Positions 63,584-63,982 of a DNA stretch of 64,000 nt are shown here, in pieces; positions within the stretch are counted from its first letter, which is position 1, and each line of letters starts with the position of its first letter. This DNA comes from a virus. The position numbers and the translations under genes were made by a program. The stretch lies in IMG/VR virus record IMGVR_UViG_3300009009_000003, positions 1 to 64,000 of that record; one strand, written 5' to 3'. The notes below the pieces were generated by a model. The model was not told the origin of the DNA. It saw nothing but the letters and a program-made list of their open reading frames with translations, and did no database searches.

Positions 63584-63982
63584 TTACCAGTATAAATCTT
63601 GATAAGTTACATATTTACGGAATTGGACAAACCTGAACGTGGACATTTTCTCTCCGGTTTGTACATTTTCCACTACTATTCTTTCGGTAGTGGAATAAAT
63701 GCAATATAACGGATCCGCTTTTGGAGCACTAATTCTGGCAATGGACACAAAAGCTGCCACAAATCCACTTTCGCCCATAACGTGAACCACCTCCCCTATT
63801 TCCCTTGCCTTGTCCACATATTCCTGGGCAAGCAAGTAAACCTCTTGGTCTGTTAATTTCGGATCTATCATGGGGAAAGGTAAATCTTGAACCCCATCCG
63901 GACACAACTCCTTTGCAGCGTCCATCTGCGCTTTACCCCATTTGCTACTTGGATGATTTGATAGATTCACCATCTTGTCCAT
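63584..63982 (-). CDS. Csx20/Csx15-like CARF-related protein, putative cyclic-oligoadenylate ring nuclease
   Basis: NLSNHPS..W..Q..AA, DLPFP.IDP, VHVMGE, STTER, F.FVQFRKY; AAGGAGG RBS before ATG 63982. Confidence 0.65.
   Translation of the reverse strand: MDKMVNLSNHPSSKWGKAQMDAAKELCPDGVQDLPFPMIDPKLTDQEVYLLAQEYVDKAREIGEVVHVMGESGFVAAFVSIARISAPKADPLYCIYSTTERIVVENVQTGEKMSTFRFVQFRKYVTYQDLYW

What the first reader, a model, noticed from the sequence alone, without database searches (positions are those of the whole stretch)
63584..63982. Phage early gene resembling CRISPR-associated Csx20/Crn1-type ring nucleases: candidate anti-type III CRISPR
Seen: 132-aa ORF with NLSNHPS, PFP.IDP, VHVMGE, STTER and F.F..FR.Y motifs among small early genes, with no cas genes or array in the window. 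Known (from memory of the family): small CARF-related proteins with S-H, G-[ED], STT.R and FR.Y motifs occur in type III CRISPR loci and are predicted or shown to degrade cyclic oligoadenylate; the known viral ring nuclease AcrIII-1 has a different fold. Inference: a host ring nuclease co-opted to quench cA4/cA6 signalling.
Basis: partly seen in the sequence, partly recalled or inferred. Interest (0 to 1): 0.75.

Follow-up and report, generated by a model that had tools for sequence, protein, structure and literature searches.

The report
Phage-borne Csx20-type ring nuclease gene
A complete 90-kb phage from sediment carries a small gene clearly related to Csx20, an enzyme bacteria use to destroy the alarm molecule of type III CRISPR immunity, so it is a credible but untested counter-defence gene of a kind already noted in print.

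Summary
It is a true member of a large Csx20-like family. NCBIfam CAS_Csx20 gives E 4e-9 but 36.9 bits, under the 70-bit cut-off. An HMM built from 66 homologues without it gives 126.6 bits, and it keeps 27 of 27 columns that are at least 90% conserved.

Its relatives (35-48% identical) are mostly in Bacteroidota. In 67 of 80 fetched loci they sit among type III cas/CARF genes, often directly after or fused to a CARF-HEPN RNase. The window's genome is a complete 90,376-bp phage with terminal repeats, no Cas10, no other cas homologue and no array. The gene lies near the head of the leftward, non-structural gene block.

Most likely it is a cA4-degrading anti-type III CRISPR enzyme.

The idea is already in print: Csx20 is a proven cA4 ring nuclease found in 4 of 28,114 phages (PMC12409355), and csx20 occurs in phage acr operons (2026 preprint). 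This scan has noted phage Csx20-like genes in at least 52 other genomes. Verdict: sound finding, a new member of a known kind.

The parts
63584..63982 (-). Csx20-like ring-nuclease candidate gene (132 aa plus stop)
   Evidence: ORF and translation. NF040559 CAS_Csx20 E 4e-9, 36.9 bits. 68 homologues at E <= 1e-3. 126.6 bits against an HMM of the 66 other family members, and 27 of 27 conserved columns kept.
63987..63994 (-). Shine-Dalgarno sequence AAAGGAGG, 4 nt upstream of the 63982 ATG
   Evidence: Read directly from the sequence. SD-like 4-mers precede 59 of 109 crude ORFs of this phage, against 9% of random positions.
63538..63577 (-). Perfect 15-bp inverted repeat with a 10-nt loop, between the csx20-like stop and the next gene. 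Its 3' arm contains the ATG of the following 72-aa ORF.
   Evidence: the repeat finder pair I7. RNA fold -27.8 kcal/mol, z -7.06, 0 of 200 shuffles as good. Its function was not tested.
63330..63548 (-). Co-oriented 72-aa ORF directly downstream, no known family
   Evidence: no Pfam or PHROG hit better than E 0.026
63034..63330 (-). Co-oriented 98-aa ORF, no known family

Best explanation
The gene encodes a stand-alone Csx20-family ring nuclease that a lytic-looking 90-kb phage captured from a type III CRISPR locus. It is probably expressed from the head of the leftward, non-structural gene block. The protein would bind the cyclic tetra-adenylate (cA4) made by the host's Cas10 when phage RNA is detected, and cut it to linear products. 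CARF-domain effectors such as Csx1/Csm6-type RNases would then never be switched on. Shown here: homology, full retention of the family's conserved residues, type III CRISPR context of the cellular relatives, phage context without cas genes. Inferred: early expression, dimeric CARF-like fold, cA4 cleavage, anti-CRISPR effect.
For: (1) NF040559 CAS_Csx20 is the only NCBIfam hit, E 4e-9, covering residues 35-124 against model positions 36-124 of 124. (2) An HMM of 66 homologues built without this protein scores it at 126.6 bits, E 2.7e-39. It keeps 27 of 27 columns that are at least 90% conserved, including N6, S8, N9, H10, H67, G70, E71, S97, T98, T99 and R101. (3) Of the 80 best genomic loci with a relative, 67 have recognised type III cas or CARF genes in the fetched flank. 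40 have Cas10 (Csm1 or Cmr2) and 45 have a CARF-HEPN protein of the TIGR02221/DxTHG type, typically ending where the Csx20-like gene starts. 40 have a CRISPR-like array. 12 of 73 hits are in-frame CARF-HEPN::Csx20 fusions, and 66 of the 150 best representatives library-wide exceed 400 aa. That is the pattern expected of an off-switch for a cOA-activated effector. (4) The genome is a complete phage: 90,376 bp, terminal repeats, 100% complete by CheckV. It has no Cas10 match. No phage ORF other than this one matches any of 1,127 neighbour ORFs of the cellular loci. (5) Three further IMG/VR contigs carry relatives without cas genes. One of them has a terminase, a DnaB helicase and two copies of the gene. 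(6) Literature: Csx20 degrades cA4 in vitro and was found in 4 of 28,114 phage genomes (PMC12409355, passages read). csx20 homologues lie in phage/prophage operons regulated by Aca14 (preprint 10.64898/2026.07.27.740549, passages read).
Against: The score against the curated Csx20 model is under its cut-off (36.9 against 70 bits). The assayed Csx20 may be a distant cousin; its sequence is in a supplement I could not open. No fold could be predicted. A profile of the family finds no solved structure (best E 0.05). hhalign sees no similarity to the CARF domain of the neighbouring CARF-HEPN proteins (probability 0.3%). The host is unknown, so it is not known that it has a cA4-signalling type III system. 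The phage uses Shine-Dalgarno sites heavily, whereas nearly all close relatives of the gene are from Bacteroidota. That is recalled, not tested, to be a phylum that makes little use of them. The protein is among the most divergent members: rank 65 of 67 by HMM score, tree branch 1.01 against a median of 0.47. It also has a 5-10-residue insertion before STTER and a C-terminal tail. No Aca-like regulator was recognised beside it. RNA-library contigs that hold this phage do not cover the gene, so expression is not shown.
Confidence: 0.65

Rival explanations
1. It binds cyclic oligoadenylate but acts mainly as a sponge, sequestering the signal rather than cleaving it, or it cleaves too slowly to matter.
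For: Phage sponges for cyclic nucleotides are established (Tad1, Tad2 and Acb2 in the PMC12043709 abstract). The related Csx15 first showed no clear ring-nuclease activity and was proposed as a possible sponge (PMC12409355). The phage copy is divergent and has an insertion next to the STTER motif.
Against: All 27 highly conserved positions are kept, including the polar Ser/His/Glu/Thr/Arg residues. A pure binder would be free to lose any catalytic ones among them. Csx20 itself is an active enzyme (PMC12409355).
Confidence: 0.1
2. It is a ring nuclease with a shifted or broadened target, such as cA3 from CBASS or type III systems, so that it serves against signalling defences other than, or besides, cA4-type III CRISPR.
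For: Csx20 at tenfold higher dose fully degraded cA3 as well as cA4 (PMC12409355). Broad specificity is reported for Crn4 (PMC12830947) and for Csx15 (title and abstract of preprint 10.64898/2026.10.26.761840). The phage copy sits on a long branch.
Against: There is no direct evidence. The conserved residues are the same as in the CRISPR-linked relatives, and ring nucleases in CRISPR loci associate only with cA4-dependent effectors (PMC12409355).
Confidence: 0.12
3. It is a passenger or decaying gene with no counter-defence role: a recently transferred cas-locus fragment, or a protein with another nucleotide-related role in phage replication.
For: The first four leftward genes are richer in G+C than the genome: 42-44% against a mean gene G+C of 35.1%, and the csx20-like gene is +1.6 sd. 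This suggests acquisition. The gene is bracketed by strong hairpins. No other gene of the phage is shared with the other Csx20-carrying viral contigs.
Against: The frame is intact with a good ribosome-binding site and complete conservation of family-invariant residues. An identical copy stands in contigs from a second study's soil runs (1,073-nt contig, 0 differences). Unrelated phages have acquired relatives, and the viral rows do not form one clade: 3 changes for 4 rows in the quick tree.
Confidence: 0.13

Closest known systems
Csx20, CRISPR-associated cA4 ring nuclease (NCBIfam NF040559; Hoikkala et al. 2025, PMC12409355)
   Same: It is the only family hit. It has the same size, about 120-130 aa, and stands alone. 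Its relatives sit in type III loci next to or fused with CARF effectors. Conserved polar motifs are retained.
   Different: It is encoded by a phage with no cas genes. It scores under the curated cut-off. So does the whole Bacteroidota-centred subfamily: 63 of 67 members hit the model, with a best E of only 4.5e-13. It has an extra loop before STTER and an 8-residue C-terminal tail.
AcrIII-1 / Crn2 (DUF1874), the proven viral ring nuclease
   Same: The proposed role is the same: a small phage enzyme that degrades cA4 to blunt type III CRISPR (described in PMC12409355 and PMC12830947, passages read).
   Different: It is an unrelated family. Neither Pfam nor NCBIfam gives a DUF1874/Crn2 hit for this protein. 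AcrIII-1 is proven in vivo; this protein is untested.
Phage and prophage csx20 homologues in Aca14-regulated operons (preprint 10.64898/2026.07.27.740549)
   Same: A csx20 homologue on a mobile element, read as a cas gene co-opted for counter-defence.
   Different: No ribbon-helix-helix or helix-turn-helix partner was recognisable next to this gene. I could not fetch the Pasteurella operon to compare sequences.
Crn1 (Sso2081-type CARF ring nuclease)
   Different: No sequence-level link was seen here. The fold comparison could not be run.

Membership tests
Csx20 (NCBIfam NF040559, equivalog) | Score at or above the curated cut-off of 70 bits | tested here: not met
   36.9 bits, E 4e-9; 36.3 bits by six-frame search. 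The CRISPR-embedded relatives also appear to stay below it (best E 4.5e-13 among 67). The shortfall therefore marks a divergent subfamily rather than this gene alone.
Csx20-like subfamily (precomputed Pfam label PF27247.1 on all 68 hits) | Full-length match and conserved motifs N-x-S-N-H-P, P-F-P, V-H-x-M-G-E, S-T-T-x-R, F-x-F-x-x-F-R | tested here: met
   126.6 bits, E 2.7e-39 against an HMM built without it. 27 of 27 columns at 90% or more are matched (alignment). PF27247 is absent from the local Pfam copy. Its name 'MJ1673' comes only from earlier AI notes.
Csx20 | Genomic association with type III CRISPR-Cas | tested here: not met
   Met for the relatives (67 of 80 loci) but not for this gene. 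The phage has no Cas10, no other cas homologue and no array. This is the expected state for a co-opted copy.
Csx20 / CARF-like ring nucleases | Dimeric Rossmann-like (CARF-like) fold with the conserved residues on the cOA-binding face | not testable with these tools
   Structure prediction and complex prediction were closed, and the Atlas was unavailable. There is no solved relative by sequence and no hhalign link to the neighbouring CARF domains.
Ring nucleases | Cleavage of cA4 to linear products | not testable with these tools
   This needs a biochemical assay. It is shown for one Csx20 representative in PMC12409355.
Anti-CRISPR (type III) | Relief of type III CRISPR immunity during infection | not testable with these tools
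   The host is unknown. No experimental report on a phage Csx20 was seen in the listings of the searches.

The most novel reading that the evidence does not exclude
The phage copy is not a plain copy of the host off-switch. It would be a fast or broadened-specificity (cA4 plus cA3) enzyme, taken from a type III locus of the Bacteroidota/Ignavibacteriota group and now working in a phage whose heavy Shine-Dalgarno use points to a different kind of host. The hairpin that buries the start codon of the next gene would tie its expression to that of the unknown small genes downstream, as a new regulatory layout for an anti-defence cassette.
Probability: 0.12. Interest if true: 0.5.

Novelty: new member of a known kind. 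Interest (0 to 1): 0.3.

Why it matters
Type III CRISPR relies on cyclic oligoadenylate signalling. Viral enzymes that destroy the signal decide the outcome of infection and are useful tools. Only AcrIII-1 is a well-proven viral ring nuclease. Phage Csx20 genes are so far a bioinformatic observation. A complete environmental phage with an intact, fully conserved copy at the head of its non-structural block is a good candidate for the first biochemical and genetic test of a viral Csx20. It does not open a new question, because the hypothesis is already published and this scan has met it in many other phages.

Tried and rejected
No fold, dimer or structure-library comparison was made.

A profile search of the PDB found only noise (best E 0.05, a designed repeat protein). 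hhalign of the family against 31 neighbouring CARF-HEPN proteins gave probability 0.3%. The CARF link therefore rests on the literature only.

Adjacent-regulator idea (Aca-like RHH/HTH): Pfam and PHROGs on the neighbouring small ORFs gave nothing better than E 0.025 to unrelated families.

For the downstream hairpin, the local alignment score was reached by 49 of 200 shuffles. For the upstream hairpin it was reached by 4 of 200 shuffles and by 11 of 200 random genome windows. Repeats of the unknown host could not be tested.

Spacer-match host search among the fetched loci: the best hit was a 22-nt exact match in L023. It lies in the A-rich leader before the first repeat, not in a spacer, and was rejected as chance.

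Related phages: pattern scans of IMG/VR with the helicase found none. The scan with the DUF2786 protein found only 32-33% identical matches. The gene's slot could therefore not be compared across a phage lineage.

tblastn of the terminase against deposited phages matched only its intein, residues 103-456. tblastn of the protein found 1 record of 50,697, at 25% identity, E 2e-4.

Expression: contigs of two RNA libraries hold parts of this phage but none covers the gene. This says nothing either way.

Habitat: the full stretch is held by one freshwater-sediment run (the possible source) and partly by two soil runs of a second study.

The careful tree did not finish in 288 s. Only the quick tree was used and it resolves little. 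Gene calls in my scripts were crude: longest ORFs, greedy. The counts of neighbours are therefore approximate lower bounds.

Supplementary tables of PMC12409355 (sequences of the assayed Csx20 and of the phage hits) were not open to me.

Full report
**The observation.** On the minus strand an ORF runs from ATG 63982 to the stop at 63586-63584 and encodes 132 residues. An upstream in-frame ATG sits at the last base of the window (64000). However, the sequence AAAGGAGG (63994-63987) lies 4 nt before the 63982 ATG, so the 132-aa form is the likelier product.

**What the protein is.**
- The local Pfam copy gives nothing and PHROGs gives nothing meaningful.
- NCBIfam gives a single hit, NF040559 CAS_Csx20. 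It scores E 4e-9 and 36.9 bits over residues 35-124 against model positions 36-124 of 124. The curated cut-off is 70 bits (repeated on the DNA).
- A search of 5.8 billion proteins returns 68 proteins at E <= 1e-3, 35-48% identical over more than 90% of the length. All carry the precomputed label PF27247.1.
- I recomputed conservation from the other 66 sequences only. The phage protein matches 27 of 27 columns conserved at 90% or more, and 39 of 47 at 70% or more.
- An HMM built without it scores it at 126.6 bits (E 2.7e-39). This ranks it 65th of 67.
- It is thus a full but divergent member. The differences are a longer loop before STTER, an eight-residue C-terminal tail and a long branch in the tree (1.01 against a median of 0.47).
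- A profile search of 1.84 billion representatives finds 2,688 clusters at E <= 1e-3 and 609 at E <= 1e-30. The family is large.

**Where the relatives live.**
- A scan of one genome per species found 406 relatives among 445 pattern matches. The best 80 loci are almost all Bacteroidota, with single Ignavibacteriota, Rhodothermota and Anaerolineaceae records.
- I called ORFs crudely in these loci, clustered 1,127 neighbours and named the recurrent clusters with NCBIfam. They are Cas10/Csm1, Csm3, Csm4, Csm5, a TIGR03986 RAMP, Cas10/Cmr2, Cmr3, Cmr4, Cmr6, Cas1, a TIGR02710 CARF protein and a TIGR02221/DxTHG CARF protein.
- The alignment of that last protein ends in an R-N-D-I-N-H HEPN-type motif. 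It is a Csx1/Csm6-type RNase.
- 67 of 80 loci have at least one of these genes in the fetched flank. 40 have a Cas10 and 45 have the CARF-HEPN gene. 40 have a CRISPR-like array by a simple k-mer detector.
- Of the 13 loci without such genes, six are contigs of 6 kb or less.
- In 12 of 73 hits the Csx20-like part is the C-terminus of a 552-623-aa ORF that begins as the CARF-HEPN protein.
- Among the 150 best representatives library-wide, 69 are stand-alone (170 aa or less), 15 are 171-400 aa and 66 exceed 400 aa.
- An off-switch placed beside, or fused to, a cOA-activated RNase is what is expected of a ring nuclease.

**Where this copy lives.**
- The window is the first 64 kb of a 90,376-bp virus record with direct terminal repeats, rated 100% complete.
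- Beyond the window, on the same strand, lie a 232-aa DUF2786/DUF7168 protein (phrog_421; genome 64080-64778) and a 137-aa ORF (65135-65548). After them come about 1.4 kb with little coding, holding four 17-bp direct repeats.
- The rightward block follows. It starts with a 211-aa gene and an intein-bearing large terminase.
- Downstream of the gene, in the same direction, are small unknown ORFs, a DUF932 protein and a superfamily-2 helicase.
- The gene is therefore the third ORF of the leftward, non-structural block. Calling it 'early' is an inference from this position.
- No Cas10 is found in the genome. No array was found apart from one three-copy k-mer repeat at about 39.4 kb, which I did not inspect further and do not take for an array.
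- No phage ORF other than this one matches any neighbour ORF of the cellular loci at E <= 1e-4.

**Signs of acquisition.**
- The genome has 35.6% G+C and a mean gene G+C of 35.1%. The first four leftward genes have 39-44%, and the csx20-like gene has 42.7%, which is +1.6 sd.
- The gene is bracketed by strongly folding intergenic RNA. Upstream the fold is -44.5 kcal/mol (z -6.5).
- Downstream there is a perfect 15-bp stem (-27.8 kcal/mol, z -7.1). Its 3' arm contains the start codon of the next ORF.
- Three other IMG/VR contigs carry relatives among phage genes and without cas genes. One has a terminase, a DnaB helicase and two copies.
- In the quick tree the viral rows do not form one clade: 3 changes for 4 rows. 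This phage groups, with SH-aLRT 92 but on long branches, with one Ignavibacteriota and two Bacteroidota rows.
- The tree has 125 columns for 74 rows and resolves little. I take from it only that capture by phages happened more than once.

**Host and habitat.**
- The stretch is held in full by a freshwater-sediment run (the possible source) and in part by two soil runs of a second study. A 1,073-nt contig identical to the phage spans the gene.
- SD-like 4-mers precede 59 of 109 crude ORFs, against 9% of random sites. From recalled knowledge that Bacteroidota make little use of SD sites, the host is probably not a typical member of that phylum, although the gene's nearest relatives are.
- No tRNA genes and no spacer match among the fetched arrays help further. 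The host, and hence the presence of a cA4-signalling type III system in it, remains unknown.

**Mechanism.** By homology, the protein most likely forms the dimeric nucleotide pocket described for Csx20 and cleaves cA4, preventing activation of CARF effectors. For Csx20 itself I read passages, not the whole paper, of Hoikkala et al. 2025 (PMC12409355; preprint 10.1101/2024.09.24.614671). They report the following:
- At 1 uM the enzyme fully degrades cA4, not cA6, and cA3 only at tenfold higher dose.
- AF3 dimer models place the conserved residues at the modelled AMP sites.

Sequence-only links to solved structures or to the neighbouring CARF domains are absent. Rival readings are a sponge rather than an enzyme, a broadened cA3/CBASS target, or a passenger gene. 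They are listed with their tests.

**Comparison with what is known.**
- The same paper reports Csx20 in four of 28,114 deposited phage genomes (five in the preprint version).
- A 2026 preprint (10.64898/2026.07.27.740549, passages read) finds csx20 homologues in operons regulated by the ribbon-helix-helix Aca14. It proposes that they are cas genes co-opted for counter-defence.
- In the listings of three full-text searches I saw no experimental test of a phage-encoded Csx20: 'Csx20', 18 papers, 13 listed; ring nuclease + phage + Csx16 + anti-CRISPR, 6 papers, 3 listed; viral ring nuclease/CARF/anti-CRISPR/cA4, 38 papers, 20 listed. Not every paper holding the terms was listed, and I read passages of four only.
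- In the deposited-phage collection used here, tblastn finds only one distant match: 25% identity, E 2e-4, 1 of 50,697 records.
- This scan has already recorded phage Csx20-like genes in at least 52 genomes (65 notes).

**Verdict.** The function is untested and the idea is already published. It is a new member of a known kind, of modest interest, and a reasonable candidate for a first biochemical test of a viral Csx20.

Noticed in passing
genome 67624-70539 (+), i.e. L002:5624-8539, beyond the window: The 971-aa large terminase carries an intein-like insert. Residues 103-456 match 'helicase/hypothetical' ORFs of Klebsiella phages at 45-47% identity, while the flanks match terminase PHROGs.
   Followed up: partly
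genome 66512-66574 (L002:4512-4574), beyond the window: Four tandem 17-bp direct repeats (TTTTG[AC]TTAACC...) lie in the roughly 1.4-kb region with little coding between the leftward and rightward gene blocks. They look like iterons: an origin or regulator binding sites.
   Followed up: no
genome 65100-65130 (L002:3100-3130), beyond the window: A 13-bp-stem hairpin with a T-run on the minus strand sits directly after the 137-aa ORF. It reads as a strong terminator, which would make the DUF2786 gene the first gene of the transcript that includes the csx20-like gene.
   Followed up: no
genome 64049-64072 and the 63983-64079 leader (partly beyond the window): The 97-nt leader of the csx20-like gene folds strongly (-44.5 kcal/mol, z -6.5), including a 10-bp GC-rich hairpin just after the DUF2786 stop.
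   Followed up: partly
loci L011, L013, L030, L038, L041, L050, L053, L063, L068, L072, L077, L081: In-frame CARF-HEPN::Csx20-like fusions of 552-623 aa occur in Bacteroidota type III loci. Library-wide there are also N-terminal fusions and tandem double-domain proteins, e.g. P0069 of 293 aa with two matched stretches. Effector-ring nuclease fusions are mentioned in the title of Figure 3 of the Hoikkala preprint.
   Followed up: partly
L004 (IMGVR_UViG_3300010938_000053), 9998-10360 and 14185-14535: This phage contig, with a terminase and a DnaB helicase, carries two Csx20-like genes about 4 kb apart. They are each other's closest relatives in the tree (SH-aLRT 98).
   Followed up: partly
window 35654-40785 and genome 63330-65882: Two islands of G+C-rich genes (about 39-50%) stand against a mean gene G+C of 35.1%. 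The other is the head of the leftward block that holds the csx20-like gene.
   Followed up: no
L007 (Sangeribacter MAG contig, 11.9 kb), match 1738-2094: The best-scoring genomic relative (E 4e-30) has no recognisable cas neighbour. Its neighbours include an Snf2-type helicase and unknown proteins, so it may be another mobile-element copy.
   Followed up: partly
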